The notes beneath the pieces are model-generated. The model saw only the letters and a list, made by a program, of their open reading frames with translations. It did not search any database and was not told the origin of the DNA. Shown here piece by piece: positions 2,720 to 46,876 of a DNA stretch of 64,000 nucleotides. Made by a program: the position numbers and the translations under genes. The stretch is from Mobula hypostoma. Taxonomy: Eukaryota. The DNA is taken from contig NC_086097.1 of the NCBI RefSeq assembly GCF_963921235.1, positions 135,844,001 to 135,908,000 of the forward strand. The letters are read 5' to 3'. How positions within the stretch are numbered: position 1 is the stretch's first letter; every line of letters starts with the position of its first letter.

Positions 2720-2920
2720 CACAGAATGATAAAAGCCTGGAGGAACTCAGCAAGTCAGGCAGCATTTATGGGGAGAAATGGACAATTGACTGAGTCCAGT
2801 CTAGATAAAGGGTCTCGACCCGAAGCTTCAACTGTCCAATTCCCTCCATAGATGCTGCCTAACCTGTTGAGCTCCTCCAGCAATTTGTGTGTTGTTCCAG
2901 GTTTCAGCATCTGTGTATCC
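2720..2920. mobile_element. Fold-back Penelope pLTR-derived short element with a decayed hammerhead
   Basis: Inverted arms about 2737-2790 / 2828-2882; centre CAGTCTAGATAAAGGGTCTCGACCCGAAGCTTCAACTG. Confidence 0.75.
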
Positions 2921-3077
2921 AGCCGCAAATTAACATTGAGCCATAGAAGATCTAAGCTGGATGAGTGACTTTAGGGTGCTGGACTGAGGTGGGAGCCCCC
3001 AGTTAAACTATTGTAGTCTCTCTGGTAAAGGTGCTGCTGGAAAAGGGGTTTCAGGATTTAGACCCAGTAATTAATCT

Positions 3078-5840: not shown

Positions 5841-5957
5841 TACTCTACAGTCTAGGCTCTGGAAGACAGGTATAGTAACACAAAGCAATGAATCTCGAAC
5901 TGGGTAAAACACTGATATGTATTATTCACTTGAACCCAACACATAGGACTGGGCAAC

Positions 5958-6172
5958 ATCTACAAAATGCTGAAGGAACTCAGCAAGTCAGGCAGCTTCT
6001 ACGGAGAGGAATAAGCAATCAACAGTTCAGACTGAGGTCTTTCATCAGAAGACTCGGCCCGAAACGTTGACTGTTTATTCCCCTCCATGGCTGCAGCCTG
6101 ACCTACTGAGCTCCTCCAGCACTTTGTGTGTGTTGCTCAACATTTCCAGCAACTGCAGAATCTCTTGTGTTT
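5958..6172. mobile_element. Fold-back Penelope pLTR-derived short element
   Basis: Inverted arms either side of about 6050; contains hammerhead 3' half CGGCCCGAAACGTTGACTG (6056-6073) and a decayed minus-strand copy. Confidence 0.8.
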
Positions 6173-6527
6173 ACATATATTTGGGTCTGGTTGGAATCAG
6201 TCCAGATACACACGGTCGGGGTTCAGGAGGGGGCAGCTGGCATGATCGTGAACCTGGACTCTGAGGGGCCACCAAGGCGGCGCAGGAAGGAATTAACATC
6301 CAGAGCACCTGGCTGACCCTTGACTGCACAGGCAGGCCCCTCAACATGGTTGTACAGTGAGCAGGAGCCTGATGTGCTCCTGTCATTGTATTATCAGCTC
6401 GTGAAAAGTGCTGAAAGACTATGACTGTGCAGAACACCAGGGCCAGCCTCTGGGCCCTGCTCCCTGACCTTTACACATAAACACATTCCAACAGCAATGA
6501 AGATCCTTGCCTTCTTTTATACCTCAC

Positions 6528-6700: not shown

Positions 6701-7679
6701 TGTTTCTCATGTTGTGTATAGATATTAAGTTTGGTATCACCTACAAAGAGAGCCCAAGCCTTGTCAGTGGGAGTCATTGATTCAAGAAAAGAGGAACAGC
6801 TTTAAATGATTTATGCCTGAGTCTAACCATACTAGAGTTTGTAAACAGGCTGAATTATTTCATGATATCAGCTGAATGTGTCCTGTGGGGTGAACATCAC
6901 AAAAAAAACTCCAGTCTCTCTGTCTCTCAGTAGTGCTTGATAAAGAAATCAACAGGCAGTCAAGCTAAAATTGCCTCACAATCCTGCCAATTCTTTTGTG
7001 CGACTTGTTACCAGGCATGGATGGAGTGAAATAAGAGAGTAGGAAATAGGAGAAGGAGGAGATCTTTCAGTCCCTTATTCAACAAGACTACGGCTGATCT
7101 GAAAGCTAAAATTCTGCAGATGCTGGAAACCCGAAGGAAAAACAGAAAATGCTGGGAAGTGGTAGTGGAGGGAAAATTAATGTTTCTGATGAATGATTTT
7201 TGACCTGAAACATTAAGTCTGTTCCAAGGATGCTCCTTGTTTTGCCAAGTATCTTAAATAGCTGTTATTTACCTCACTGACATTTTTCTGCTTATCTTCA
7301 CAGTGCTCAATTTCTCTACAATCCAGAATATATCAGTCTGAGTTCTCAATGAACTAAAATATCTGAGCCTCCACAGGGTCCAGAGTTCATCTCTGAGTGA
7401 AGAAGTGTATCCTTAGCTCAATCCTAGATCTGTCCCTTACTCTGAGAACATAGCCCCTCTAGATTCAAGCAGAGGAAACATCCACCTTGTCAAGACTTCT
7501 GACAACTTTGTGTGCTTCAACAAGTGTGAGCCCAGAAGCAGATGGGACAGGCTTGCTAGGCAACACAGATGACTTGGTGTGAAGAGCCTGCTTCTGTACT
7601 GTATGACTCTATGATTCTTTCTTCACATCTGCTAGTCTCCCACATGCAGTAGAATATAAGAGCTGAGACTTTATAAAAT

Positions 7680-11505: not shown

Positions 11506-12692
11506 ATCAGAATCAGAATCAGGTTTAATATCACTGGCATATGTCATGAAATTTGTTAACTTCACGGCAGCAGTCCAATGCCATACATGATCATATAGAA
11601 AAAATAAGTAATTCAATTACAGTATATATATATATAAAATAGTTAAATTGAAAACAGTGCAAAAACAGAAATAATATTAAAAAGTGAGCAACACACACCA
11701 AAGTTGCTGGTGAAGGCAGCAGGCCAGGCAGCATCTCTAGGAAGAGGTACAGTCGACGTTTCCGGCCGAGACCCTTCATCGGGTAAAAGTGAGGTAGTGT
11801 TCATGGGTTCAATGTTCATTTAGGAATTGGATGGCAGAGGGGAAGAAGCTGTTCCTGAATTGCTGGGTGTGTGCCTTCAGGATTCTGTATCTCCTTCCTG
11901 ATGGAACCCATGAGAAAAGGGCATGCCCTGGGTGACGGGGGTTCTTAATAATGGACGTTGCCTTTCTGAGGCACCACTACTAGAAGATATTCTGGATACA
12001 ACAGAGGCTAGTACCCAAGGTGGAGCAGACTAATTTAACAACTTTCTGTTGTTTTCAGTCCTGTACAGTAACCACCCCCCGCCCCATTACCAGACAGTGA
12101 TACAGCTGTCAGAATGCTCTCCATGGTACATCTATTGAAGTTTTTGAGTGTTTTAGGTGACAATCCAAATCTCCTCAAACTCCTGATGAAATATAGCTGC
12201 TGTCCTGGCTTCTTCACAGCTGTATCAATATGATCGATATGTTGGGACCACGTTAGATTCTCAGAGATCATGACATCCAGGAACTTGAAATTGCTCACTC
12301 TCTCCACTTCTGATCCCTCTATGAGGACTGGTTCATGTTTCCTCGTTTTACCCTTCCTGAATTCCACAATCAACTCTTTTGTCTTACCGATGTTGAGAGC
12401 AAGTTTGTTGCTGCAACGCCACTCAACTAGCTGGTTTATCTTGCTCCTATACACCCTCTCGTATCTGTCTGAGATTCTGTCAACAACAGTTGTATCATCA
12501 GTGAATTTATAGGTGGCACGTGAGCTATACTTAGCCACACTGTCATGGGTATAGAGAGAGTAGAGCAGTGGGCTAAGCGCACATCCCTGAGGTGTGCCAG
12601 TGTTGATAGTCAGCAAGGGGGAGGTATTATTACCAATCCACACAGATTGTGGTTTTCTGGTTAGGAAGTCGGGGATCCAGTTGCAGAGGGAG
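11506..12692 (-). mobile_element. Rex1/Babar LINE, 5'-truncated
   Basis: ORF 12035-12739 has CNWIPDFLT, GTPQGCALSPLL and YKFTDD; (GATTCT)n tail at about 11506-11522. Confidence 0.9.
11689..11784 (-). mobile_element. Short Penelope pLTR-derived insertion starting at the hammerhead core
   Basis: TSD AAAAGTGAG at 11680-11688 and 11785-11793; minus strand reads CCGATGAAGGGTCTCGGCCGGAAACGTCGACTG. Confidence 0.85.
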
Positions 12693-16451: not shown

Positions 16452-19400
16452 TCAGAACCACGCCCCAGCCTTCCCTCCATACCCCTTGACCCCTGTAGCC
16501 ACAAGGGCCATACCTAACTCCCTCTTAAACATAGCCAATGAACTGGCCTCAACAGTTTGCTGTGGCAGAGAATTGAACAGATTCACCACTCTCTGTGTGA
16601 AGAAGTTTTTCCTAATCTTGGTCCTAAAAGGCTTCCCCTCTATCCTCAGACTGTGACCCCTCGTTCTGGACTTCCCCAACATCGGGATCAATCTTCCTGC
16701 ATCTAGCCTGTCCAATCCCTTTAGGATCTTATACGTTTCAATCAGATCCCCCCTCAATCTTCTAAATTCCAACGAGTACAAGCCCAGTTGATCCAGTCTT
16801 TCTTCATATGAAAGTCCTGCCATCCCAGGAATCAATCTGGTGAACCTTCTTTGTACTCCCTCTATGGCAAAGATGTCTTTCCTCAGATTAGGGGACCAAA
16901 ACTGCACACAATACTCCAGGTGTGGTCTCACCAAGGCCTTGTACAACTGCAGTAGTACCTCCCTGCTCCTGTACTCGAATCCTCTCGCTATAAATGCCAG
17001 CATACCATTCGCCTTTTTCACTGCCTGCTGTACCTGCATGCCCACTTTCAATGACTGGTGTATAATGACACCCAGGTCTCGTTTCACCTCCCCTTTTCCT
17101 AATCGGCCACTATTCAGATAATAATCTGTTTTCCTATTTTTGCCACCAAAGTGGATAACTTCACATTTATCCACATTAAATTTCATCTGCCATGAGTTTG
17201 CCCACTCACCCAACCTATCCAAGTCACCCTGCATCCTCTTAGCATCCTCCTCACTGCTAACACTGCCGCCCAGCTTCGTGTCATCCGCAAACTTGGAGAT
17301 GCTGCATTTAATTCCCTCATCCAAGTCATTAATATATATTGTAAACAACTGGGGTCCCAGCACTGAGCCTTGCGGTACCCCACTAGTCACCGCCTGCCAT
17401 TCTGAAAAGGTCCCGTTTATTCCCACTCTTTGCTTCCTGTCTGCTAACCAATTCTCCACCCACACCAATACCTTACCCCCAATACCGTGTGCTTTAAGTT
17501 TGCACACTAATCTCCTGTGTGGGACCTTGTCAAAAGCCTTTTGAAAATCCAAATATACCACATCCACTGGTTCTCCCCTATCCACTCTACTAGTTACATC
17601 CTCAAAAAATTCTATGAGATTCGTCAGACATGATTTTCCTTTCACAAATCCATGCTGACTTTGTCTGATCATTTCTCCGCTTTCCAAATGTGCTGCTATC
17701 ACATCCTTGATAACTGACTCCAGCAGTTTCCCCACCACCGACGTTAGGCTAACCGGTCTATAATTCCCCGGTTTCTCTCTCCCTCCTTTTTTAAAAATTG
17801 GGGTTACATTAGCCACCCTCCAATCCTCAGGAATTAGTCTAGAATCTAACGAGTTTTGAAAAATTATCACTAATGCATCCACTATTTCTTGGGCTACTTC
17901 CTTAAGCACTCTAGGATGCAGACCATCTGGCCCTGGGGATTTATCTGCCTTCAATCCCTTCAATTTACCTAACACCACTTCCCTACTAACATGTATTTCC
18001 CTCAGTTTCTCCATCTCACTGGACCCTCTGTCCCTTACTATTTCTGGAAGATTATTTATGTCCTCCTTAGTGAAGACAGAACCAAAGTAATTATTCAATT
18101 GGTCTGCCATGTCCTTGCTCCCCATAATCAATTCACCTGTTTCTGTCTGCAGGGGACCTACATTTGTCTTTACCAGTCTTTTCCTTTTTACATATCTATA
18201 AAAGCTTTTACAGTCCGTTTTTATGTTCTCTGCCAGTTTTCTCTCATAATCTTTTTTCCCCTTCCTAATTAAGCCCTTTGTCCTCCTCTGCTGAACTCTG
18301 AATTTCTCCCAGTCCTCAGGTGAGCCACTTTCTCTGGCTAATTTGTATACTACTTCTTTGGAATTGATACTATCCCTAATTTCTCTTGTCAGCCACGGGT
18401 GCACTACCTTCCTTTGATTTATTCTTTTGCCAAACTGGGATGAACAATTGTTGTAGTTCATCCATGCAACCTATAAATGCTTGCCATTGCATATCCACCG
18501 TCAATCCTTTAAGTGTCATTTGCCAGTCTATGTTAGCTAATTCACGTCTCATACCTTCAAAGTTACCCCTCTTTAAGTTCAGAACCTTTGTTTCTGAATT
18601 AACTATGTCACTCTCCATATTAATGAAGAATTCCACCATATTATGGTCACTCTTACCCAAGGGGCCTCTCACGACAAGATCGCTAATTAACCCTTCCTCA
18701 TTGCTCAAAACCCAGTCCAGAATAGCCTGCTCTCTAGTTGGTTCCTCGACATGTTGGTTCAAAAAACCATCCCGCATACATTCCAAGAAATCCTCTTCCT
18801 CAGCACCTTTACCAATTTGGTTCACCCAGTCTACATGTAGATTGAAGTCACCCATTATAACTGCTGTTCCTTTATTGCACACATTTCTAATTTCCTGTTT
18901 AATACCATCTCCGACCTCACTACTACTGTTAGGTGGCCTGTACACAACTCCCACCAGTGTCTTCTGCCCCTTAGTGTTACGCAGCTCTACCCATATCGAT
19001 TCCACATCTTCCCGGCTTATGTCCTTCCTTTCTATTGCGTTAATCTCTTCTTTAACCAGCAACGCCACCCCACCTCCCCTTCCTTCATGTCTATCCCTCC
19101 TGAATATTGAATATCCCTGAACGTTGAGCTCCCATCCCTGGTCACCCTGGAGCCATGTCTCTGTGATCCCAACTATATCATAATCATTAATAACAATCTG
19201 CACTTTGAATTCATCCACCTTATTACGAATGCTCCTTGCATTGACACACAAAGCCTTCAGGCGCTCTTTTACAACTCTCTTAGCCCTTGTACAATTATGT
19301 TGAAAAGTGGCCCTTTTTAATGCTTGCCCTGGATTTGTCGGCCCGCCACTTTTACTTTTCTCCTTTGTACTTTTTGCTTCTATGCTCACTTTACACCCCT

Positions 19401-19485
19401 CTGTCTCTCTGCACTGGTTCCCATCCCTCTGTTGTGAACTAACCTCCTCATGCCTAGCCTCTTTAATTTGATTCCCACCCCCCAA
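16452..19485 (-). CDS. CR1 ORF2: APE endonuclease plus reverse transcriptase, single frameshift at about 18415
   Basis: NARS, GITETW, GDFN and SDH (18376-19485); PGPDG, YRPVSLTS, DFQKAFDKV, QGSVLGP and FADD (16452-18461). Confidence 0.95.
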
Positions 19486-19491
19486 CCATTC

Positions 19492-20449
19492 TAGTTTAAA
19501 GTCACCTCAGTAGCCCCCGCTAATCTCCCCGCCAGGATATTGGTCACCCTACACAAAAGTGTAACCCATCCTTTTTGTACAGGTCACGCCTGTGCCAAAA
19601 GAGGTCCCAATGATCCAAAAACTTGAATCCCTGCCCCCTGCTCCAATCCCTCAGCCACGCATTTATCCTCCACCTCATCGCATTCCTACTCTCACTGTCG
19701 CGTGGCACAGGCAGTAATCCCGAGATTACTACCTTTGCAGTCCTTTTTCTCAACTCCCTTCCTAGCTCCCTATATTCTCCTTTCAGGACCTCATCCCTTT
19801 TCCTACCTATGTCATTGGTACCTATATGTACCACGACCTCTCGCTCCTCACCCTCCCACTTCAGGATATCTTGGACACGATCAGAAATATCCTGGACCCT
19901 GGCACCAGGGAGGCAAACTACCATCCGGGTCTCTGGACTGCGTCCACAGAATCGCCTATCTGACCCCCTTACTATCGAGTCCCCTATCACAACTGCCCTC
20001 CTCTTCCTTGCCCTACCCTTCTGAGCTACAGGGCCAGACTCTGTGCCGGAGGCACGGCCACTGTTGCTTCCCCCGGGTAAGCTGTCCCCCCCAACAGTAC
20101 TCAAACAGGAGTACCTGTTGTTAAGGGGCACAGCCACCGGGGTACTCCCCATCACCTGCCTTTTCCCCTTCCCCCTCCTAACCGTGACCCACTTATCTGC
20201 CTCCCGTGGCCCTGGCGTGACGACCTGCCTTCCACTCCTCTCTATCACCTCCTCGCTCTCCCTGACCAGACGAAGGTCATCGAGCTGCAGCTCCAGTTCC
20301 GTAATGCGGTCCCTTAGGAGCTGCATCTCGATGCACTTGGCGCAGATGTAGACGTCCGGGAGGCTTGGAGACTCCAGGGCCTCCCACATCTGACACCGAG
20401 AACAGCAAACTGCCCTCACACTCATAATGCCCCTCTCCTCAAATAGCAA
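19492..20449 (-). CDS. CR1 ORF1: zinc finger/leucine zipper plus SGNH esterase; 1-nt frameshift near the C-terminus (about 19550)
   Basis: CSRC..CAKC, LELQLDDL, VIGDSIVR, HIGTND and DGLH; natural end TNILAGRLAGATEVTLN* lies in a shifted frame. Confidence 0.9.
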
Positions 20450-21733
20450 CAGAAAATGAATGTCAAACCTTCCTCGCCTCGCCCGCTTCCGCCTAAGCCC
20501 GTTGAGCCGAAGCCCTTAAGTCTTCACTGTGCTCCCGGCTCACTCCGCCGCCCGCAAACTACGCTGCCCGCTCTATGAGGCTTTGTTCCTTTTAAATCTG
20601 CCGCGCTGCACTGCCCGACGTCACACGCCTGCGCAGTCCCGCCTCTCAGAAAGCCGTTGGAGAAAAAAAATAACGAAAATTTCAAAAATCTCTTTCTCGG
20701 CACTCCCACTCAGACTCTCAGACTCCTTCTTCGAATCAAACCCGAAGCAGGATGATGGGGATCTTTGATGCAGAACGTTCCCTTCTTGAGAGACCACCTC
20801 CTGTAGGTACCACTGATGGTAGAGAGAGACGTGCCCGTGATGTATTTTGCAGAGTCTACTGCTCTCTAGTCACCATCCATTCATGCAACCTCCAACCAAT
20901 CAGAATTGGCCGCTGTAAGCTGGAAGGCAAAGACAGCAACGTGTGGTCCTCCACGTCTACCCGCATCCATATTGTGGAGTGCTGTTCTTCTGGAGAAGGT
21001 TGAAGCAAGTCCAGTGAAGAGCTAGCCACTCCCCCAGCCATCATGTGCACTCCCAGCCTAACACAGGATCAATACTGTAACACGATCTCAGGATCTGTCT
21101 AAGTCCAAGATTTGCAACTGGTCAGAATGATGGCTCCCAGCTGCTAACTGTTGAACCAAAATCAAGACTTTTAATGCATGACAGCAAGATCACAATCACA
21201 ATTCCTGGTGGAGCCATTTTTAAATAAGTTAATGTAGCAAACTGGTTTTCAAGTAAAGTACTATTCAGGGATAAAAGAAATTATTTCTAGTCCCTGGACA
21301 AACAGAGCAACACAGTTCCCAGACCTCATTAGAAAAAAAAAGAATTGAAATCTTGTCAAATGTGTGGAGTCTGGAGGATTTCAATAGCACTACTGTAGAG
21401 CAGTTTTGAAAGCAGTAGCAGGGATGTGTCTGCCCTGGAGACAATCTGTTGTACAGGAGCGTCTCTCCTATTATCTCCTCCACATCAAACTCAAGCAGCA
21501 CCACCCCCGAGGCTGACTAACATTTTTCCGATAATTGCAAAAATAGCTGAAGAAAATATAAGGACCCTACTCAAGTTTTACAAAGTTGAACGTGAGAAGT
21601 GTAATTTTCACTGACTCCACAAAGCTTATAAGTCGTTTGTCTTTTGAAATTTGTTGCATCACATGCCTGGGAGCATTTAAATGAGTCTACAGCTAACATG
21701 GTGAATGAGAGCCATCAAACATAGCACCGACTT

Positions 21734-22300
21734 ACACTCAGTGACCATTCTTACTTTAGTAGGTACCTCCTGTACCTAATAAAGTGGCCACTGAGTGTAT
21801 GTTTGTGGTCTTCTGCTGCTGTAGCCCGTCCACTTCAGGGTTAGACATGCTATGTACCCGGAGATGCTCCTTTGCACCACTGTTATAATGCATGGTTATT
21901 TAAGTTACTGTCGTCTTCCTGTCAGCTTGAACCAGCCCGGCCATTCTCCTCTGACCTTTCTCATTTACAAGGCACTTTAGTCCACAGAACCACCACCCAC
22001 AGGTTTTTTTTTTTGTTTTTCGCAGCATTCTCTGTACACTCTAGAGACTGCTGTGTATAAAAATTCCAGGAGATCAGCAGTTTCTGAGGTACTCAAACCA
22101 CCCCATCTGGCACCAACAATCATTTTTGGGTCAAAGTTGCTTAGATCAAATTTCTTCCCCATTCTGATGCTTGCTTTGAACAATGACTGAACCTCTTGGC
22201 CATGTCTGCATGTTTTTATGCATTGAGTTGCTGCCACATGACTGGCTGATTGGATATTTGCATTAATGAGCAGGTATACTGGTGTATCTGAATGTATTGC
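21734..22300 (-). mobile_element. Non-autonomous Tc1/mariner derivative carrying the transposase N-terminus
   Basis: TA-CACTCAGTG..CACTGAGTG-TA mini-palindrome at 21734-21799; MGKKFDLSNFDPKMIVGARWGGLSTSETADLL HTH in ORF 21977-22237. Confidence 0.75.
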
Positions 22301-22518
22301 ACCATCTTCATTGATGTAGAGCTGCAGAGGAACAGTCCAATAGGCCCATTAGCTCCTACGACTTTGTATCCTTCTCCTTCAAACCCCCAATGCTTCCCTC
22401 TCCACACCTTCTACCAATCCTTCCTCATCTAAGACTCTCTGGCTGTCCCTCGAAATCACTGCAACACTTTCAGTGTGCTGGATGAACTCAGCAGGTCAGG
22501 CAGCATGTTAGAAACGAT

Positions 22519-22556
22519 GAGTCAACGTTTCGGGCCGGAACCCTTCGTCAGGACTG
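22519..22556 (-). ncRNA. Minimal type I hammerhead ribozyme motif
   Basis: CAGTC-CTGACGA-AGGGTTCCGGCCC-GAAAC-GTT-GACTC: intact core, stem I AGTC/GACT, stem II GGG/CCC, palindromic AACGTT in place of stem III. Confidence 0.8.
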
Positions 22557-22762
22557 AAGAATGAAAGATGGGGAAGGATTTGAAGAATGCTTGTAGCTTC
22601 AGTTGAAAGACCAGTAATTTGAAAGACAAAGGGGTGGGGGAGGGGAAGCATTGACGTCATAACCCTGAAAACAATAGGTAGTAGACGAAGGAGGCGGAAC
22701 CATGAGGGAGCTGGGGGAGGGGGTAGAGTGAAATAGGGATAGAGGAAGGGAGGGGGAGGGAA

Positions 22763-24590
22763 TTACCGGAAGTTGGAGAATTCTATGTTCATACCAAAGG
22801 GCTGGAGACTACCTAGATGGTATATGAGGTGTTGCTCCTCCAACCTGAGTTTAGCCTCATCATGGCAGTAGGAGAGGCCATGTATGGACATATCTGAATG
22901 GGAATGAGAAGCAGAGTTGAAGTGGGTGGCTACCGGGAGATCCTGTCTGCTGTGGCGGACAGAGTGGAGGTGCTCGACGAAGCGGTCCCCCAATCTGCGT
23001 CGGGTTTCACTGATGTAGAGAAGGCCGCACCGGGAGCACCGGATGCAATAGATGACCCCAACAGACTCACAAGTGAAGTGTTGTCTCACCTGGAAGGACT
23101 GTTTGGGGCCCTGAATGGTGGCAAGGGAGGAGGTGTAGGGACAGGTGTAGCACTTACGCTTACAGGGATGAGTGCCGGGTGGGAGATCTGTGGGGATGGA
23201 CGTGCGGATAAGGGAGTCACGGAGGGAACGATCCCTGCGGAAAGCGGAGAGCGGCAGAGAGGGAAAGATGTGCTTAGTGGTGGGGTCCTGTTGAAGGTGG
23301 CGGAAGTTGCGGAGGATAATGTGCTGGATCTGGAGGCTGGTGGGGTGGTATGTAAGGACAAGGGGAACTCTGTCCCTGGTGTGGTTGCGGGAGGATGGGG
23401 TGAGGGCCAAAGTGCGGGAAATGGAGGAGATGCGGGTTAGGGTATCATTGATGACGGTAGAAGGGAAACCATGATCCTTAAAGAAAGAGGACATTTGAGG
23501 TGTCCTGGAACGGGAAACCTCATCCTCGGAGCAGATGCGGTGGAGATGGAGGAACTGGGAATAGGGAGTGGCATTTTTGCATGTGGTGGGCTGGGAAGAG
23601 GTATAGTCGAGGTAGCTATGAGAGTCAGTGGGCTTGTAGAAGATGTCAGTGGACAGTCTGTCTCCAGAAATGGAGACCGAGACATCAAGAAAGGGGAGAG
23701 AAGTGTCCGAGATAGACCAAGTGAATTTGAGGGCTGGGTGGAAGTTTGAAGTAAAGTTGATGAAATTGACGAGCTCAGCATGGGTGCAGGAAGCAGCACC
23801 AATGTAGTCGTCAATGTACCGAAGGAAAAGTTGGGGAACAGTACCAGAATAGGTCTGGAGCATAGACTGTTCCACATAACCAACGAAGAGGCAGGTGTAG
23901 CTGGGTCTCGTGCGAGTTCCCATAGCTACACCCTTAGTCTGAAGAAAATGGGAAGAGCCAAAAGAGAAGTTATTAAGTGTGAGAACCAGTTCGAACAACC
24001 GGAGGAGGGTAGTGGTGGTGGGGAACTGGTGAGGTCAATTATCCAGGAAGTAGCGGAGGGCTTTGAGGCCTTCTTGATGGGGAATGGAGGTGTATAAGAA
24101 TTGGACATCCATAGTAAAAATGTAGCAGTTGAAACCAGGGAATTGGAAGTTATTGAAAAGGTGGAGGGCATGGGATGTATCCTGGATGTAGGAGGGGAGG
24201 GACTGAACTATGGGTGACAAAATGGAGTCCAGGTACGCAGATACAAGTTCGGTGGAACAGGAGCAGGCAGAAACTATGGGTCTACCGGGACAGTCAGGCT
24301 TGTGTATCTTTGGGAGGAGGTAAAACTGAGCGGTACAGGGTGTGGGAATAATGAGTTTAGCGGCTGAGGATGGAAGGTCTCTGGAGTTGATAAGGGCAGT
24401 TATGGTGTGGGAGACAATGGTTTGATGTTCTTTGGTGGGGTCCTGTTCCGGTGGTAAGTAAGAGGACGTGTCAGAGAGCTGCCGTTTTGCCTCAGTGAGG
24501 TAGAGGTCCCTCCGCCAGACTACTACAGCACCACCTTTGTCAGCAGGTTTGATGGTGAGGTTGGAATTAGTGCGGAGAGAGTGGAGGGCA
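22763..24590 (-). CDS. Penelope RT + Cys linker + GIY-YIG endonuclease (5'-truncated, one in-frame TGA at 24035-24037)
   Basis: IKPADKG, YLLPKIHK, GRPIVS, MDVQFLYT, GVAMG, RYIDD, CKRKCYTC and VIYCIRCSRCGLLYISET..RFVEH. Confidence 0.93.
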
Positions 24591-24720
24591 TTCTACTACC
24601 CATTGTTTTCAGGGCTATGATGTCAATGCTTCCCCTCCCCCATCCCTTTGTCTTTCAAATTACTGGTCTTTCAACTGAAGCTACAAGCATTCTTCAAATC
24701 CTTCCCCATCTTTCATTCTT

Positions 24721-24758
24721 CAGTCCTGACGAAGGGTTCCGGCCCGAAACGTTGACTC
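24721..24758 (+). ncRNA. Minimal type I hammerhead ribozyme motif
   Basis: Identical 38-nt motif in the inverted pLTR. Confidence 0.8.
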
Positions 24759-24867
24759 ATTGTTTCTAACTGATGCTGCCCGACCTGCTGAGTTCATCCA
24801 GCGTACTGAAACTGTTGCTTTGATCACAGCATCTGCAGATTATTTTGTGTTTACCTCGGAATCACTG

Positions 24868-25110
24868 ATGATTCACATCCCTCAGTTCCATGGGTTCCAG
24901 TAAGGGCAATGAGGGAACTACAGATGGGGCTGGAGGGGTCAGCCTGGGAGCGTGGGTAGTTTGGTAAGTGGTCCCTTCCTTCCTTCTGCCACCAAAGGGC
25001 CTGTCCTTCTTGCCATCCTGAATGCTCCTTCTTCACTTTGATCCAAAGATATCCACTCCTCTGGGGAATTTTAAGTGCATTCTTGAATCTTTTCCTCTGT
25101 TCCCTTGACA
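24868..25110 (-). mobile_element. Old RTE-clade LINE 3' end (target of the Penelope insertion; continues at about 22435-22447)
   Basis: EQRKRFKNALK..RRSIQDG..decayed terminal Zn-finger; 3' motif GATTCCGAGGGACAGCC restored across the TSD. Confidence 0.6.
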
Positions 25111-26308
25111 GAATTCAGAATATTAATGAGTTCTTATGAGTTACGAGTTTTAGTTTATTGTCAGAGGCATACATACCCAGTGATAAATGCCACAAAAATG
25201 AGCTTTTTGCAGCAGTAGCTCATTACATTAAAAACATGAGAATCATAAATTAGATAAACTTAGAATAACATAAATTATACATAATGTACATTACAAAATA
25301 AACACAAATACACAAAATGATATTAGTGAAGTTGAGGGAATGTCTGACGTAGAGTTCAGAGTTTTCAGGAACCTGATGGCAATATGGAAGAACTTGCTGC
25401 TGAAGCTTGGGGTGTAGGTTTTCAGGTGTCTGTTTTCTCTGCCTGATAATACCATTCCTGAGGGAATCTGCAGATGCTGGAGATCCAAAGCAACACACAC
25501 AAAATGCTGGAGGAACTCAGCAGGCCATGGAGTCCGGTTTTGAGCATGTGTCCGACCTGTAACTGGGTCATCAGTACAATAGTCAATAGACAATAGGTGC
25601 AGGAGTAGGCCATTCAGCCCTTCGAGCCAGCACCACCATTCACTGTGATCATGGCTGATCATCCACAATCAGTACCCCGTTCCTGCCTTCTCCCCATATC
25701 CCTTGACCAGGGACGCTAGCCTGGGAGAGGAAGCTGATGTTGCCTCATTTATCTTTCCAGTGATTTTGGAGGATTTTGAGGTGATCAGTGCGGGGGAATA
25801 CGAGAGTAAATTGGTAATTTTGTTTATTATTGTCGCATGCACAGAGGCACAGTGAAAAACTTTGTTTTGTATACCATCACAATAGCACATTGAAGTAGAA
25901 CAAGTGAAATCAATATTAGAATGCAGAATAAAGTGAAGGAGTAGAGTGCAGACAGGCAAAAAGATGCAAGGCCCTAACAAGGAAGCTTGTGAGATCAAGT
26001 GTCATTCTTGTCATTTTAGGGGACCATTCAATAGCCTTGCAATGACTATTAATTGTAAGGTTATTGAATGATCCCCTTAGGATAGAAGCTGTCCTTGAGC
26101 CTCGTGATAAATGCTTTCAGGCTTTTGTACCTTCTGTCTGATGTGCGTGGGGAGAAGTTAGAATGACCAGCGAAGGTGGGGTAGGTGCTGAGATTATGCA
26201 AATTCTTCCTGTCTGGATATCTTGCTGTGTGGAGGCAACTTCATCCCCACTTGGCAATCATTTTCACTCTGCAGAGGTAGCATGGAGTAAGGTTGCAATC
26301 TGGCTTGT

Positions 26309-27103: not shown

Positions 27104-27431
27104 TGCTTCTGATATAACAAGTGCTGATAAGGTATCCAGACTATCAGGAAGACTTCAAACACGAGCAATTCTGCAGATGCTGAAAATTCAAGCAACACAC
27201 ATCAAAGTTGCTGGTGAACGCAACAGGCCAGGTACCTCTTCCTAGAGATGCTGCCTGGCCTGCTGCTTTCACCAGCAACTTTGATGTGTCAAAGTTATCA
27301 GGAAGACTTGCCTTGCACTGGAATTGACACAGCTCTTGTATGGAGCACAGACAGGAAGAACATGCCTCGCTGCTGTTTGAGCTCTTTAACTCCAGCACTT
27401 GAAACATCAAACTCTGTGCAGAAGCAGATGC
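27104..27431 (-). pseudogene. 174-nt phase 0-0 exon disrupted by a 154-bp fold-back insertion
   Basis: AG at 27432-27433; GTAAGT at 27098-27103; with 27156-27309 removed it reads open: ASASAQSLMFQVLELKSSNSSEACSSCLCSIQELCQFQCKASLPDSLDTLSALVISEA. Confidence 0.55.
27156..27295. mobile_element. Fold-back Penelope pLTR-derived element lacking the hammerhead
   Basis: TSD TATCAGGAAGACTT at 27142-27155 and 27296-27309; arms ACACATCAAAGTTGCTGGTGAA / TTCACCAGCAACTTTGATGTGT. Confidence 0.9.
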
Positions 27432-27700: not shown

Positions 27701-29322
27701 CAGTGGCATGCAAAAGTTTGGGCACCCCGGTCAAAATGTCTGTTGCTGTGAATAGCTAACTGAGTAAAGGATGACTTGATTTCCAAAAGGCATAAAGTTA
27801 AAGATGGCACATTTCTTTAATATTTTAAGCAAGATTACTTTTTTATTTCCATCTTTTACAGTTTCAAAATAACAAAAAAGGGAAAGGGCCCGAAGCAAAA
27901 ATTTGGGCACCCTGCATGGTCAGTACTTAGTAACACCCCCTTTGGCAAGTATCACAGCTTGTAAACGCTTTCTGTAGCCAGCTAAGAGTCTTTCAATTCT
28001 TGTTTGAGGGATTTTCGCTCATTCTTCCTTGCAAAAGGCTTCTAGTTCTGTGAGATTCTTGGGCCATCTTGCATGCACTGCTCTTTCAAGGTCTATCCAC
28101 AGATTTTCGATGATGTTTACGTCGGGGGACTGTGAGGGCCATGGAAAAACCTTCAGCTTGCGCCTCTTGAGGTAGTCCATTGTGGATTTTGTGGTGTGTT
28201 TAGGATCATTATCCTGATGTAGAAGCCTCCCTCTTTTCATCTTCAGCTTTTTTTTGACAGACAGTGTGATGCTTGCTTCCAGAATTTGCTGGTATTTAAT
28301 TGAATTCAATCTTCTCTCTACCAGTGAAATGTTCCCCATGCCACTGGCTGCAACACAAGCCCAAAGCATGATCGATCCACCCCTGTGCTTAACAGTTGGA
28401 GAAGTGTTTTTTTCATGAAATTCTGCACCCTTTTTTCTCCAAACATACCTTTGCTCATTGCATCCAAAAAGTTCTATTTTAACTTCATCAGTCCACAGGA
28501 CTTGTTTCCAAAATGCATCAGGCTTGTTTAGATGTTCCTTTGCAAACTTCTGATGCTGAATTTTGTGGTGAGGATGCAGGAAAGGTTTTCTTCTGATGAC
28601 TCTTCCATGAAGGTCATATTTGTGCAGGTGTTGCTGCACAGTAGAACAGTGCACCACCACTCCAGAGTCTGCTAAATCTTCCTGAAGGTCTTTTGCAGTC
28701 AAACGGGGGTTCTGATTTGCCTTTCCAGCAATCTTACGAGCTGTTCTCTTGGAAAGTTTTCTTGGTCTTCCAGGCTTCCACTTGACCTCCACTGTTCCTG
28801 TTAACTGCCATTTCTTAATTACATTACAAACTGAGGAAATGGCTACCTGAAAACACTTTGCTATCTTCTTGTAGCCTTCTCCTGCTTTGTGGGCATCACT
28901 TATTTAATTTTCAGAGTGCTAGGCAGCTGCTTAGAGGAGCCCATGGCTGCTGATTGTTGGGACAAGGTTTGAGGAGTCAGGATATTTATAAAGTTTTGAA
29001 ATTTGCATTACCTGGCCTTTCCAATGACTGTGAACAAGCCATAGCCCTAACAAGCTAATTAAGGTCTGAGACCTTGGTAAAAGTTATCTGAGAGCTCAAA
29101 TCTCTTGGGGTGCCCAAACTTTTGCATGGTGCTCCTTTCCTTTTTTTCCCACTTTAAAATTGTACAAAACAAAAATAATACACTAATCCTGTTTAAAATG
29201 TTGAAAAGAATGTTTCATCTTTAACTTTATGACTTTTGGGAATTAGTTCATCTTCTACTCACTTAACTATTCACAGTAACAGAAATTTTGATCAAGGGAG
29301 CCCAAACTTTTGCATGCCACTG
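27701..29322 (-). mobile_element. Complete Tc1-like DNA transposon, IR/DR type, 1622 bp
   Basis: TA TSDs (27699-27700, 29323-29324); termini CAGTGGCATGCAAAAGTTTGGG; inner repeats at about 27895-27912 and 29108-29125. Confidence 0.97.
27920..28944 (-). pseudogene. Tc1 DD34E transposase with a frameshift (about 28905) and a premature stop (28019-28021)
   Basis: MGSSKQLP..GEGYKKI, GRPRK, WTDE, QDND-34aa-E (SPDVNIIEN); C-terminus VILAKGGVTKY*. Confidence 0.93.
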
Positions 29323-34474: not shown

Positions 34475-36224
34475 TAAAGGAAAGGAGAAATACTTCTGTC
34501 AGGATGGGGTGATCCATATGTCTGTTGAGTTGGGAGATGTGGTTGGGGTAACCAAAGTGAGTAACTGCATTGCATTTTGTAAATGATGCATATTGCAGTC
34601 TTTATGTACCAGGGAAGGATGGAATGAAGATTTAGGGTGGTGGATGGGGTGTCAGTCAAAAGGGTTACTTTATCCGGGATTCAGACACATGTTGGCCTTG
34701 AACTTCTGGATGGTAGAGCCTATTGATTGGAGGTGTGATGTTCTAATATACTCAAAATAACAAAAGATTTATTATTCGGAAACGTCTCTACTTCAATTTA
34801 CACGGGGTAGTGAGGGGGTGGAAGTTGATCCATATTTCCTCAACCGAATGGAAACCCAATATCAAAAGCTATTGGTTTGAAATCCTGAAAGTTTGAGAGT
34901 GTTCCTTAAGAGTAAGGAAGAAGACAAAATCATTTTCCATCTCTTCTCCCCTCAGTTGTTTTAATAGATTCCAAAGAATGAACAGAAGTCTCAGACTCCG
35001 CTAGATTTTTAACTGGCAAGACTTCAGAGGAGAAGATTGGTATTACTTAAAATTCTTCTTCATCCAAAATTATCAAACATTCTGACAAAGAATTCCTGTT
35101 CTGAATCAAACATTTCATGTAAGAAATTATATCACTGTCTAGGAGAAGAAAAGGAAATGTTAGGGTAGTAAGATTTCTTGTCTAGAAATCAATATTAATC
35201 ATGTGTGTAGTATGCAGTGGAATGACCAACTGAATCACACAAAACTGCTGGTGAAATTGAGTGGACATGTGCTCAGTGCAAAGGCATTTTTTACAACATT
35301 GATAAAAAAAGGACCTGTTCCGATCCACTGAGAACTTCTCGACTAGCTCACAGTGAATATATTATTCCTGCCTTTGGATTGCTAGAAAACAACTTTTGCC
35401 CAAGGATAACAGCATCTGCAGATTATTTTGTGTTAACAACTCCAGGATTTCCAATCCAGAATTGTTGGTGAAATTCCTCTAACTAGGGAACATCTATACT
35501 CTGAATAGAATTATCTCAGTGTAATTAGGGAAGTTGAACTGTGTAAGGGTATTGACAGTGGTTATGTTGCCAGTGTGTTTGTGGGGATGATGAACTGGCA
35601 TCTCTCGAGTTGTCTGAGGCTGATGTTGCTGATATCACCACAATAATACTTTGAAGAACTTACTGTATTTGGATTACTTTTGGCATCACCAGGAGTCAAC
35701 ACTGACATTATCACTCCAAATCTTCAACTTCAAGTCTATTGTTGTCAATGGCATACATATAGAGGGTATAGATGCATTGAAAATGAACTTTTTGCAGCAG
35801 CAGCACAGGACAAATAAACATTGACATAAACTTAAGTTAACATAAATTAAACGTAACACCATGTTATAAGTAAATTATATGCACGCGTGCAAAATAATCA
35901 ACAAAATTTAACATAATGACAAAGATGTTCGCCAGGAAGTAACATGGCCTTGACGTTTGGTGACTTGTTGAAAGCTGATCTCTGCTGATCTACTAATCAA
36001 AGACTACTCCCACAGTTACAAGACTATTGAACAGACATCTTGTACATTTAGATGGACCCTTGAGCTTGTGATCTATCTGGTTTTGGCCTTGCACCTTATT
36101 GTCTGTCTCCATCACACTTTCTCTGCAACTACTCTATTCTGCATTCTGTTATGGTTTTCTCCTGTACCACCTCAATGTACTGATGTGACAAAATGATCTG
36201 TATGGATGGCAGACAAATCAAAGA

Positions 36225-36350
36225 GCTGATGAGGGGTCTTGGGCTGATATGCTGACTGCTTAGTCCCTCCAAGGATGCTGCTCAACTTGCTGATTTCCTC
36301 CAGCATTTTGTGTGTGTTGCTTAAGATTTCCAGCATCTGCAAAATCTCAC
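36225..36350 (+). mobile_element. Decayed Penelope pLTR-derived short element
   Basis: Begins CTGATGAGGGGTCTTGGGCTGATATGCTGACTG; ends CCAGCATCTGCA. Confidence 0.7.
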
Positions 36351-36640
36351 GCTCTTAAAGTTGTTCACTGTACCTTGGTACATGTGGCAGTAATAAACCA
36401 ACTTAGCATTTTACCAATAATGACTGCAAACTTCAACCTGTTAGAAACACACAAGCTTAATTAGCTCAATGTTATAGAGTCAAAGGGCTACAGAACACAG
36501 CAGTACAGATACAGGCTTGTCCCATCTACCTGCACCCACCATAGCGCTCTATATCTCATCCATGTGCCTATCCAAACCTCTTAGATGTTGCGATTGAACC
36601 CCCATCCACCACTTGCGCAGGCATCTCGTTCCACACCCAA

Positions 36641-43030: not shown

Positions 43031-45151
43031 ACGGACCTGAGGGGCAACTTCTTCTTCAGACCGTGGGTGGTGGTGGGTTTATGGAATGAGCTGCCAGAGG
43101 GAACTGGTAGAGGTACCCACATCAAACACTTTCTTGTGTTTATGAGGTGGGTACTTCTAAAGAGCATTTGGACAGGTACATGGATAGGAAAGGTTGGATA
43201 AAACAGGAAATACAAGCAAACAGGACTAGCGCGGTCAGGCAACTTGGCTGGCGTGAAGGAGTTGGGCAGAAGGGCCTACTTTTATACTTTGTACTTTATT
43301 GTCGCCAAACGATTGATACTAGAGCGTACAATCATCACAGCGATATTTGATTCTGCGCTTCGTGCTCCCTGGAGTACAAATTGATAGTAAATACTAAAAA
43401 TTTAAATTATAAATCATAAATAGAAAATAAAAAAGGGAAAGTAAGGTAGCGCAAAAAAAACCGAGAGGCAGGTCCGGATATTCGGAGGATATGGCCCAGA
43501 TGCATGGCTCTTCTATGGCTGTATCACCTGATCGCATTATGCCTGTAGGCTCAATTGCTGCAGAGGGGATTCTGCTCTGTCAGACATGCCCTATTTCCAA
43601 TGAGATGCCCTTGAAAGGAAAATCCTACAAAAAATACTGGATATGGCCCAATTCGTTACGGGTAAAGTCCTCCCCACCACAGAGCACATCTACACGGAGC
43701 GTTGTCGTTGAAAAGCAGCATCCATCATCAAAGACCCCTACCACCAGCTCATGCTCTCTTCTTGCTGCCGCCCAGCTGTCTGGTCTCTGGTACAGTATAT
43801 TGTACAACTCTGATGTAGCACGGAAAAGGCCCTTTGGCCCATTGACACTGTGCCAACCATCAAGCACCAATTTTTACATTAATCCTACCCCAGCCCATTT
43901 TATTCTTCCCACATTCCCACCAACTCTCCCCACATTCTGTCATCATCCACACCCGAGGAACAATTTGGCATGGCCTCTTCTTTCCTCTGCTTCTGATTGT
44001 TGTCACCCAGCACAAACTATGTTAATCAGTTATCCCCTTGGCTTAGTTTTGTACCGAGTCTGTGAAGGAAACAGTGATGCGCATTGTCCATACAGAGAAT
44101 GGATATTTCATAGTGATAGAGGAGATTTGTCATGACTTATACAATCTGGCCTTTGCACTTATGGCATGTGGATAGTGAATTAAATCCTTATAATCTAGTT
44201 ATGGAGACACAGAAAATGCAGATGCTGGAATCTAGAGCAGCAAACACGATGCTGGTGCAACTTAGCAGATCAAGCAGCACCTGTGGGGGGAAGGAAGTGT
44301 CTGTGTTGAGTTCTTCTCTGATCTTGGCAATTTACTTACAAATGTTTTGTCACTGTGCAAGGAGACATCGTCAGTGCGCCGTTGATTGGGATGAGTCCTC
44401 CAAATGCTTGGCCTTTATATACTATTTAAACAGGTGATTAGACGTCTTTTTGGAAACTCGGTTGTGATGTGGGGAGGAAATCTCATCGCAGATTGGCTGC
44501 GTGGCGAACTTTGTGCATTGCGGTCTGGAATCTTGCCCACATCGACTCATAAATAGGATCGTCTCAGTTTGAAAACCCTGCAGGACTGAGAGTGAAGAGT
44601 GAAAATAGCATGAAGAAGGACCGTGGGGGACAGTCTCTTAGAATTTCCGTCATCGAGAGGAGAGACTTCACAGTGGACTAGTAAAACAAACACAAGAGAC
44701 TGCAGACTTTGGAATCTGGAGCAACCAAACCATGCTAGAGGAACTCGGTGGGTCAAGCAGCTTCTGTGGGAGGAACAAGAAGCATCACAGTGCATCTGTT
44801 TGTAACATCAGCAATTGATCGTTTGTGAGTTGCTCTGTGACAGGCAGTTATCCAGTGGTGTGACCTAGTGCAACATCAACGCTGTGGAAATCTGACCCGC
44901 TTCTGGAACCTAGGGCCAATTTGGAAGCCATTTTCCTCAACAGTAAGCTGGTGTGTGTTGGCGCAGCTGCCAGGTGCCATGTTTGTTCTTAATAGTGACA
45001 GACGTCACGTGGGTTTATGTTGGAAAATTTTATTATCGAACTGCTGGTCAACCCTGTGCGCGCACAGCCTGGTCAATGTCGCATCTGATGGTTCTGGGTG
45101 AACCTCTTTCATTGCCCACTGGGAACGGAAGTGCTTTATTATGCACACACT

Positions 45152-45432: not shown

Positions 45433-46354
45433 AGTGGAACCTTACGCCATGAGTCTTTTGTGACCGAGCTTAGGAAATCACTGCTTCCTGACACATCCCT
45501 CAGGCCAGCTATAGGTATCTGCCAGACCCCGTCACCTCCTCTGCTCAGTGAGTTTAGACCACTTTTCTCCCACAGGCCTGCACATTCAGGCAGGCTGCTA
45601 GACAGCCCGTTTGATTTACAAGCTCTCCCAAGAGATGGCATTAAAACGTAATGACCAAGACTGCATTTGGTAATCTATTCAATAGGACTATTTAGCAAGA
45701 ACACTCTACACCTCAGGGCAGGCCTGAAGTGCTGTCATCCTGGTTCAGGAGAACAATGAAAGTCATTGCCTTCTTTAGAGAAAGATCATTGTTTTAATGG
45801 TTAATTCTGGTGCATGTTTAATATCAAGTTATCTAATTAGCGCTGGTAACTGCGTTACAAAGCCGCAGTCACAATTCAGTTCTGCTTGCTGACACTGGAA
45901 CATGCTCCCTAAGGGCACATCAGGCCGCAACAGTGACCTTCTTCAAATCAAACAGGGGCAACAACCACCGACCAGACCTCAAGCGAATGTAAGCAGGAAT
46001 GCCTGCCCGGCTAGAGTAGCTTCTGGGGTCCGTGACCAAACAGATTGCTTCAGCCTACAAACTGGTGCTGCCCTCTGTGCTGACACACGTGGAGCAGTAA
46101 ACTGATCACACACCGAGGTACCCTGGCAAACATCTCTGACCTGTCTAACACCAAGCACTCTGCAGATGTGCTACTGAAAGTACTGTAACCTGATGGGTCG
46201 CCTCATGGCCTGGTACGGCAATTCGGATGCACAGGAATGTAAGAAGCTGCAGACAGCAGTAGACTCTGCCCAATACACCATGGGAACATCCTACCCCACG
46301 ATTTGTAGCATCTACAGGAGGTGTTGCCTTAGGAAGACAACACCTACCATCAAA

Positions 46355-46557
46355 CACGAGGAATTCTGCAGATGCTGGAAATTCAAGCAACACACATCAA
46401 AGTTGCTGGTGAACGCAGCAGGCCAGGCAGCATCTGTAGGAAGAGGTACAGTCGACGTTTTGGGCCGAGACCCTTCGTCAGGACTCGGCCGGAAATGTCG
46501 ACTGTACCTCTTCCTATAGATGCTGCCTGGCCTGCTGCGTTCACCAGCAACTTTGAT
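46355..46557. mobile_element. Fold-back Penelope pLTR-derived element inside a Rex1 fragment (about 46160-46875)
   Basis: TSD CTACCATCAAA at 46344-46354 and 46558-46568; near-perfect arms; minus-strand hammerhead at 46449-46486 with GAAA>AAAA. Confidence 0.92.
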
Positions 46558-46876
46558 CTACCATCAAAGATCCCCATTCCATATTCTTGCAGCTACCATC
46601 CAACAGGAAGTACTGAAGTCTTAAGTTCCACACCACAAAGTTCAGGAACAACTACTGCCCTTCAGCATTTTAGTTCTTGAACGCTAATCACTATAATTCA
46701 GCAATACTATGACCACTTTGATTAACTTGCACTAACATGGACTATATTGTGTCTTTTCTTGTAAAAAAAACCATACAATTTATGTTTAACTTATGCTTTT
46801 CAGGTGAAAATTGCTCATCTGATGCTGTACGCCTGTGATGTTGCTGCAAGTAGGGTTTTCATTGCACCTGTGAATA

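What the first reader, a model, noticed from the sequence alone, without database searches (positions are those of the whole stretch)
22448..24867. Penelope element with two intact, oppositely oriented minimal hammerhead ribozymes
Seen: an RT+GIY-YIG frame with one stop, about 225-bp inverted pLTRs, a 14-bp TSD (one mismatch), and an identical CAGTC-CTGACGA-AGGGTTCCGGCCC-GAAAC-GTT-GACTC in each arm (22519-22556 minus, 24721-24758 plus). Known: Penelope-like elements carry minimal type I hammerheads whose stem III is reduced to a palindrome and which are thought to cleave as dimers. Inference: AACGTT supplies stem III in trans and cleavage follows GUU. A transcript from either strand would carry one sense ribozyme plus its antisense complement, so the locus could self-cleave or be locked as a long hairpin.
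Basis: partly seen in the sequence, partly recalled or inferred. Interest (0 to 1): 0.7.

Follow-up and report, generated by a model that had tools for sequence, protein, structure and literature searches.

The report
Dead Penelope copy, mirrored ribozyme ends
This is a broken copy of a Penelope-type jumping gene in a ray-like fish genome; its two mirror-image ends each carry a small self-cutting RNA motif, a layout already described for these elements, and here the motifs are most likely inactive passengers.

Summary
In detail: a 14-bp TSD with one mismatch, inverted arms 95% alike, and a 38-nt minimal type I hammerhead identical in both arms (3 descriptor hits in the window, 0 in 100 shuffles). 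The ORF lacks about 290 N-terminal residues and begins at the arm junction; it has a stop codon and YIG changed to YIS. Its CX3CXXC linker points to the Neptune clade. Only the right arm has a 36-nt tail. Stem I is 4 bp, and only ACGU can form stem III. The 'inverted 5'-truncated copy plus tail' layout is published for PLEs, and five more such pairs lie in this window; the scan noted the same pattern in three other shark-like windows. A read-through RNA in either direction makes the antisense arm first and has no second sense ribozyme, so a long hairpin (about -420 kcal/mol) should win over cleavage. All 6 pairs carry the tail on exactly one arm, and 4 of 6 cannot be fold-backs. This suggests two cDNAs primed from opposite strands of one staggered cut (inferred). 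A 117-nt block around the ribozyme is identical in both arms and is unexplained (P about 0.01). Verdict: new member of a known kind.

The parts
22448..22461 (+). Left target-site duplication, 14 bp
22462..22685 (-). Left arm: 3' pseudo-LTR of the long copy, sense on minus, without tail
22519..22556 (-). Minimal type I hammerhead; predicted cut between 22524 and 22523
22686..22762 (-). 3' UTR stretch between the stop codon and the part shared with the right arm
22763..24592 (-). 5'-truncated RT-EN frame, 609 codons, about 290 N-terminal residues missing
22835..23059 (-). GIY-YIG endonuclease with CCHH finger; YIG changed to YIS (G528S)
   Evidence: 109 of 109 homologues scored have G
23141..23164 (-). 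CX3CXXC linker zinc-finger motif (Neptune/Nematis marker)
23789..24307 (-). Reverse transcriptase core matched by Pfam RVT_1 (residues 96-268)
24035..24037 (-). Premature TGA at codon 186 (Arg or similar in homologues)
24590..24592 (.). Inversion junction: 5' truncation point of the ORF meets the 5' end of the inverted arm
   Evidence: 81 (X1) and 69 (X5) contigs continue the family ORF past 24590
24592..24817 (+). Right arm: inverted 5'-truncated second copy, sense on plus
24644..24760 (+). 117-nt block identical in both arms; it contains the hammerhead
24721..24758 (+). Minimal type I hammerhead: 4-bp stem I, CUGACGA, extra A, 4-bp stem II, GAA, ACGU palindrome, U17; predicted cut 24753/24754
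24818..24853 (+). 36-nt tail, on this arm only; its end is a common family terminus
   Evidence: 77 X1 contigs leave the element at 24853 into unlike flanks
24854..24867 (+). Right target-site duplication

Best explanation
One old insertion of a Neptune-type EN+ Penelope-like retrotransposon that was dead on arrival. It is made of two 5'-truncated copies joined head to head: a 2.1-kb copy ending at the inner 3' end of the element and a 262-nt copy ending at the outer 3' end (with tail), between 14-bp TSDs (anatomy shown). Most likely the element's protein cut the target with a 14-nt stagger and primed one cDNA from each strand, one at each of the two reverse-transcription start sites that bound the tail, and the unfinished cDNAs were joined (inferred; about 0.55 for this step). 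The hammerheads came along as part of the pLTR. In tandem source elements they can pair through ACGU as a double hammerhead (by analogy). At this locus a read-through RNA from either side makes the antisense arm first and folds into a duplex of about 225 bp with a 1.9-kb loop that buries the ribozyme, so the likely output, if any, is double-stranded RNA rather than cleavage (computed, not measured). Only a short RNA starting inside an arm and running outwards could escape, and it would still need a partner RNA and probably the element's protein.
For: Truncation: family contigs continue the ORF past 24590; 44 long homologues have a median of 290 more N-terminal residues. Decay: stop, G528S, 15 changes at columns at least 90% conserved. 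Clade marker: CX2-5CXXC linker in 107 of 110 sequences scored, as defined in PMC8557442. Layout is typical: PMC8557442 Fig. 2 legend, PMC3846280, PMC2377424. Six inverted pairs in this window, tail on exactly one arm in 6 of 6, TSDs of 14, 14, 14 and about 11 bp in 4 of 6. In 4 of 6 each arm holds sequence the other lacks, which a fold-back cannot give. The anole PLE protein cuts and extends both strands and starts at two sites that bound the tail (PMC11167929). Energetics: arm duplex -420 kcal/mol; active double hammerhead -15.3 against -26.9 for the best dimer fold and -10.9 per monomer; the 38-mer pairs its core GACG with CGUU at probability 0.82-0.98. Published single minimal hammerheads did not cleave and dimers cleaved weakly (PMC4209133); the anole one needs protein. 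Inverted Penelope copies match siRNA-producing regions in transgenic flies (PMC3681739). Other window copies have decayed cores: 3 of 8 arms with both halves keep CUGANGA and GAAA, 2 of 8 also keep ACGU. The insertion is shared with a second organism.
Against: The 117-nt block with the hammerhead is identical in both arms, while all 10 differences lie in the other 109 nt (P = 0.006-0.012); 4 of 4 CpGs outside the block decayed in one arm against 0 of 4 inside (Fisher 0.014). Plain neutral decay does not predict this well. Nearest-neighbour energies ignore core tertiary contacts, Mg2+, proteins and kinetics; with 128 nt of context the off-fold and stem I both drop to about 0.15. Six pairs are few (1/64 under independent choice); I picked them by their similarity to the arm, and two are too old to show a TSD. 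PMC3846280 offers another route to inverted junctions (self-priming on an antisense template). The Neptune assignment rests on one motif, not on a tree.
Confidence: 0.8

Rival explanations
1. The ribozymes are active at this locus in short outward transcripts. A promoter in each pLTR fires away from the element, the RNA lacks the antisense arm, and it forms a double hammerhead in trans with one of the many family RNAs, trimming the 5' end at GUU.
For: Core, stem II and ACGU are intact. GUU is listed among cleavable NUH sites (PMC3138052). The D. virilis pLTR holds an internal promoter able to drive downstream transcription (PMC2377424). A heteroduplex with a natural window copy scores -20.0 kcal/mol in the active geometry.
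Against: Stem I is only 4 bp; alternative folds are lower in energy in all 6 pairings computed; published dimers cleave weakly; no reads ended at the cut site in anole RNA-seq. No promoter was tested here.
Confidence: 0.12
2. The pair has been kept by selection at this locus (co-opted as an RNA or DNA element), which is why the 117-nt block is unchanged in both arms.
For: Identical block, P about 0.01; CpG contrast; no site where the family majority differs from this copy falls in the block among the 41 of 86 rows shown; the insertion is shared by two organisms.
Against: The pattern was noticed after the fact in one locus. Gene conversion between arms 2 kb apart, or from younger copies, gives the same picture. 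Only 38 of the 117 nt are ribozyme. No host gene was found among 18 long ORFs scanned.
Confidence: 0.05
3. Same dead element, but the inverted arm arose by self-priming on an antisense template or by endonuclease resolution of a fold-back intermediate, not by priming from both target strands.
For: Proposed in PMC3846280 and PMC8557442; 2 of 6 window pairs are nested and fit a fold-back.
Against: In the focal locus the long arm has the ORF and no tail, the short arm has the tail and no ORF, so neither can be copied from the other; the same holds for 3 more pairs. No palindrome is seen at the 24590/24592 junction. An antisense RNA template is not excluded.
Confidence: 0.3
4. Two independent insertions, or an assembly artefact, produced the inverted pair.
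For: Inverted repeats trouble assemblies (PMC8557442). No listed contig spans the internal junction.
Against: One TSD encloses both copies; the arms differ at 10 places; the pattern repeats in five other pairs; the tail-flank junction is in contigs of two organisms.
Confidence: 0.02

Closest known systems
EN+ Penelope-like elements with an inverted 5'-truncated copy and a 30-40-bp tail (Craig et al. 2021, PMC8557442 Fig. 2; Arkhipova et al. 2013, PMC3846280, e.g. Pen2 derivative with inverted pLTRs, 10-bp TSD and in-frame stop)
   Same: Inverted pLTRs around a truncated ORF, tail at one end only, TSD, hammerhead in the pLTR, C-terminal GIY-YIG with CCHH.
   Different: No direct upstream pLTR and no full-length ORF, so no source of sense transcription; TSD 14 bp against 8-10 bp in the rotifer examples read; host is a cartilaginous fish.
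Neptune clade of PLEs (marker given in PMC8557442)
   Same: CX2-5CXXC linker between RT and EN; DKG motif; CCHH.
   Different: Neptune elements are said to favour microsatellite targets; this target is not a microsatellite. No reference tree was built.
Minimal type I hammerheads of metazoan PLEs (Cervera and de la Pena 2014, PMC4209133)
   Same: CUGANGA and GAAA core, extra nucleotide between 9 and 10.1, G10.1-C11.1, palindromic 15.2-16.2 without loop, 4-5-bp helix I; opposite-strand pairs already reported.
   Different: Helix II is 4 bp (7-8 bp in Schistosoma); U17 rather than C17, a split that runs through the family; no shark or skate entry in the one supplementary file searched.
Poseidon element of Anolis carolinensis (Frangieh et al. 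2024, PMC11167929)
   Same: Tail bounded by two 3' ends; hammerhead in the pLTR.
   Different: Other clade; active protein; the main text read does not discuss inverted insertions or TSDs.
Twin priming of mammalian L1 (recalled, no call)
   Same: Both target strands prime a cDNA, giving an inversion within one TSD.
   Different: In L1 the two cDNAs copy non-overlapping parts; here both copy the same 3' end, so the arms overlap.

Membership tests
EN+ Penelope-like element | [quoted passage not shown] | tested here: met
   Pfam scores are below cut-off, but 1115 homologues at E <= 1e-20
EN+ Penelope-like element | CCHH finger with two Cys between GIY and YIG | tested here: met
   C519-x2-C522, H541, H557
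EN+ Penelope-like element | pLTRs in direct or inverted orientation, optional 30-40-bp tail, TSD | tested here: met
Active (autonomous) PLE | Full-length open ORF with upstream direct pLTR and intact YIG | tested here: not met
   about 290 residues missing, stop, YIS, upstream arm inverted
Neptune clade | CX2-5CXXC zinc-finger-like linker between RT and EN | tested here: met
   shared with Nematis according to PMC8557442
Neptune clade | RT phylogeny groups with reference Neptune elements | not tested
   no labelled reference sequences were at hand
Penelope/Poseidon clade | No extra zinc finger in the RT-EN linker | tested here: not met
   linker finger present
Minimal type I hammerhead of PLEs | CUGANGA and GAAA boxes, U16.1-H17, extra base after A9, G10.1-C11.1 | tested here: met
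Minimal type I hammerhead of PLEs | Palindromic 15.1-16.1 allowing a nested double hammerhead | tested here: met
   ACGU pairs, -15.3 kcal/mol, but not the lowest-energy dimer
Minimal type I hammerhead of PLEs | Self-cleavage as a dimer | not testable with these tools
   needs an in vitro assay
Minimal type I hammerhead of PLEs | Core conserved above background across copies | tested here: inconclusive
   3 of 8 window arms keep both boxes; one search showed 41 of 86 variant rows, none in the boxes
Rfam hammerhead models | Match to a curated covariance model | tested here: not met
Non-LTR retrozyme | Non-coding tandem direct repeats, each with a type I hammerhead (10.64898/2026.07.22.740005) | tested here: not met
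   two inverted copies around a coding remnant

The most novel reading that the evidence does not exclude
The locus and its five neighbours record an obligate two-ended insertion reaction: the PLE protein dimer makes a staggered cut of about 14 nt and primes one cDNA from each target strand, always one at the outer and one at the inner start site. That would explain the inverted pLTR, the one-sided tail and the TSD together, and would mean most insertions are self-silencing hairpins that bury their own ribozymes. My searches found no paper stating this rule.
Probability: 0.5. Interest if true: 0.5.

Novelty: new member of a known kind. Interest (0 to 1): 0.22.

Why it matters
As a ribozyme finding it matters little: hammerheads in PLE pseudo-LTRs and inverted ends are both published, and this copy is dead. 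Its use is as a clean fossil of the insertion reaction. One long arm without tail, one short arm with tail and a sharp TSD rule out simple fold-back and make a countable prediction (exactly one tail per inverted insertion) in genomes with very many copies. How PLEs make inverted ends and tails is still described as open in the papers read.

Tried and rejected
Rfam scans found no hammerhead; the miRNA-like hits are other hairpin repeats below gathering score. Pfam on the two ORF halves found nothing at E 0.001. No whole genome is held, so no genome-wide count was possible. The motif pattern gave 0 viral contigs and 3 metagenome loci that share only about 25 nt with the element; not used. No RNA holder listed. 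In the two runs guessed to be RNA, family contigs cover the arm, depth is 0 over 24870-24993, no listed contig bridges the locus junctions, and no pile-up of ends was reported; contigs cannot show ends or expression, so this says nothing either way. Summed contig depth over the hammerhead bin is about 1e5 times the unique flank in X1, but the tool states that this is no copy number. A sigma-70 promoter scan does not apply to a vertebrate. GUU as a private CpG decay of GUC: not favoured, because T stands in all 4 arms of the two copies with this stem II loop and in about half of the family depth, though conversion could also explain it. Microhomology at the internal junction could not be fixed. 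No rate for GUU against GUC was found. The paper of Lunse et al. on dimers is not held; I saw only its title and a review's paraphrase. No paper held all of hammerhead, Penelope and elasmobranch. Supplementary file 1 of PMC4209133 could not be searched and may list cartilaginous-fish motifs. No earlier scan note matched by sequence or place.

Full report
Observation. A 14-bp repeat with one mismatch (22448-22461, 24854-24867) bounds the element and is the best flanking repeat in the search. The arms 22462-22685 and 24592-24817 differ by 9 substitutions and one 2-nt indel in 226 columns. The 38-nt motif is identical at 24721-24758 (+) and 22556-22519 (-). My minimal-hammerhead descriptor found 3 hits in the 64-kb window, these two and one at 48725, and none in 100 shuffles. 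Rfam has no match, which I attribute to the missing stem III (inference).

The protein. The minus frame 24592-22763 gives 609 codons with one TGA at codon 186. It has 1115 homologues at E <= 1e-20 among 8000 candidates scored. The closest named ones are from the rays Hypanus sabinus (82%) and Mobula hypostoma (79%), so the host is probably a ray (inference). The frame starts just before the DKG motif; 44 homologues of at least 850 residues have a median of 290 more residues in front. Contigs of two DNA runs continue the family ORF past 24590 (81 and 69 contigs), so the copy is 5'-truncated at the arm junction. It has YIS where 109 of 109 homologues scored have YIG or the like with Gly, and 15 changes at columns at least 90% conserved in a 12-sequence alignment. 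A CX3CXXC motif lies in the RT-EN linker; such a motif is in 107 of the 110 sequences scored (of 121 held). PMC8557442 (Introduction and passages) gives it as the mark of Neptune and Nematis against Penelope/Poseidon. I built no tree.

The ends. The right arm runs 36 nt further than the left (24818-24853). In run X1, 77 contigs leave the element at 24853 into unlike sequence, so this is a common family terminus. This is the 'tail'. An inverted 5'-truncated copy with a 30-40-bp tail at one end is drawn as a typical PLE arrangement in PMC8557442 (passages), described with TSDs and in-frame stops in PMC3846280 (passages) and called frequent in D. virilis in PMC2377424 (passages). PMC4209133 (parts 1-2 of 4 read) already notes minimal hammerheads close together on opposite strands. 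A profile of the arm gave 19 hits in this window, 12 of which form six inverted pairs: 2716-2914, 5950-6170, the focal one, 27156-27295, 46352-46557 and 48616-48817. Four have TSDs (14, 14, 14 and about 11 bp); the two most decayed have none detectable. So the layout is the ordinary product of this family.

Age. A contig of organism B covers 24829-25150, that is 25 nt of tail plus TSD and flank, with 5 substitutions and 3 indels, and ends where the contig of organism A ends. This is under the tool's 31-letter bridging rule on the element side, but it mirrors the source organism, so the insertion is very probably shared. About 2% change per arm against about 0.8% per lineage in the flank fits an insertion older than the split (inference).

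The ribozyme. In standard numbering the motif has C3-A9 intact, an extra A after A9, G10.1-C11.1 opening a 4-bp stem II, G12-A14, then A15.1-C15.2-G16.2-U16.1 with no loop, U17, and a 4-bp stem I followed by a C-C mismatch. These are the traits listed for PLE minimal hammerheads in PMC4209133. Stem III can form only between two copies, through ACGU. The longer AACGUU would pair A14 with U17, both core positions (established hammerhead numbering), and this form is 2.6 kcal/mol lower than the active one. U17 and C1.5 are family variants, not plainly private damage: C17 makes up 51, 46, 64 and 59% of summed contig depth in X1, X5, X15 and X17, and G1.5 44, 40, 69 and 63% (biased towards the reference). 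GUU is listed as cleavable in PMC3138052 (passages).

How it most likely behaves. The arms point outwards. A minus transcript meets the antisense right arm first and the sense left arm last; a plus transcript meets the antisense left arm first. Neither has two sense copies. The arm duplex is -420 kcal/mol, and in the minimum-energy fold of both full-length RNAs all 38 nt pair with the other arm. Even alone, the 38-mer prefers a rod in which the core GACG pairs with CGUU (0.82-0.98; about 0.15 in 128 nt of context), and the active double hammerhead (-15.3) lies above the best dimer fold (-26.9). These energies ignore tertiary contacts and protein. Published work points the same way: a single minimal motif showed no cleavage and dimers little; the anole motif cleaved only with protein, was not needed for insertion in vitro, and left no ends in RNA-seq (PMC11167929, parts 1-2 of 4 read). 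In transgenic flies siRNAs matched the inverted parts of Penelope copies (PMC3681739, passages). Whether this locus is transcribed is unknown. Other window copies decay through the core: of 8 arms holding both halves, 3 keep CUGANGA and GAAA and only the focal 2 also keep ACGU (a doubtful ninth at 7181 was left out). Stem II keeps its pairs across three loop variants, which suggests selection in source elements, on very few sequences.

How it was made. All 6 pairs have the full tail on exactly one arm (1/64 if each arm chose independently at even odds). In 4 of 6, the focal one included, each arm holds sequence that the other lacks, so neither is a copy of the other. The anole protein nicks and extends both target strands, is predicted to be a dimer, and starts reverse transcription at two sites that bound the tail. 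Together this suggests a staggered cut leaving 14-nt 3' overhangs, one cDNA from each, one from each start site, joined at their truncated ends. This step is inference. PMC3846280 proposes self-priming on an antisense template and PMC8557442 endonuclease resolution; an antisense template is not excluded. Searches for this model found nothing relevant, in a library that lacks most subscription papers. Three earlier scan notes on other shark-like genomes report the same short palindromic insertions; they are unchecked leads and not independent support.

Unexplained. The arms are identical over 117 nt (24644-24760), with all 10 differences outside (P = 0.006, or 0.012 when adjacent changes are merged; the test allows for scanning). 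All 4 CpGs outside the block decayed in one arm and none of 4 inside (Fisher 0.014). Among the 41 of 86 variant rows shown, none inside the block is a site where the family majority differs from this copy. Chance, gene conversion and local selection remain open; I give selection about 0.05.

Context. Of 18 long ORFs scanned, 11 matched transposon domains (RT, endonuclease, esterase-type ORF1, Tc1 transposase) and none matched a host gene family. No direction of read-through can be named.

Verdict. Real, and ordinary for its class: a new member of a known kind. The ribozyme pair is a by-product of the insertion pattern. The part worth following is the one-tail rule. Interest 0.22.

Noticed in passing
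window 48602-48831, 27142-27309, 46344-46568, 5950-6170, 2716-2914: Five short palindromic insertions made of the same pLTR end, tail on one arm; TSDs of 14, 14 and about 11 bp in the first three.
   Followed up: partly
window 2786-2925, 5945-6175, 46352-46557, 48616-48817: Seven short arms have their upstream ends at positions equal to 24721-24726 or 24740-24741, at the start of the hammerhead or in loop II, not at the cut site.
   Followed up: partly
window 24644-24760 and its mirror 22633-22517: 117-nt block identical in both arms, P about 0.01; unexplained.
   Followed up: partly
window 24773-24853 (+): An ATG after the hammerhead opens a short frame through the tail, with one stop; by analogy with rotifer and anole elements this may be the start of the family ORF. 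Not tested.
   Followed up: no
window 11684-11784, 25460-25529, 35396-35433, 36222-36351, 44214-44306, 44691-44781, 7109-7131: Single pLTR or tail fragments without a partner arm.
   Followed up: no
window 16452-20515 (-) and 50645-53248 (+): Two long LINE copies with esterase-type (GDSL) ORF1, endonuclease and RT; the first is nearly complete.
   Followed up: no
window 28019-28903 (-): Tc1/Sleeping Beauty-like transposase frame of 294 codons.
   Followed up: no
window 21725-21807 and 26018-26077: Short hairpin (inverted-repeat) elements that give sub-threshold miRNA hits in Rfam.
   Followed up: no
L001 666-693, L002 14-38, L003 353-376: Three metagenome contigs share an unrelated repeat carrying a hammerhead-like core with nearly the same stem II but other stem I and III sequences.
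   Followed up: no
window 57310-58176 (+), 43431-44135 (+), 60114-60809 (+): Frames of 230-290 codons from stop to stop without a Pfam match.
   Followed up: no
window 24753 and 24758, runs X15 and X17: C17 and G1.5 have a higher share in the two runs guessed to be RNA than in the DNA runs; contig depth is a poor measure.
   Followed up: no
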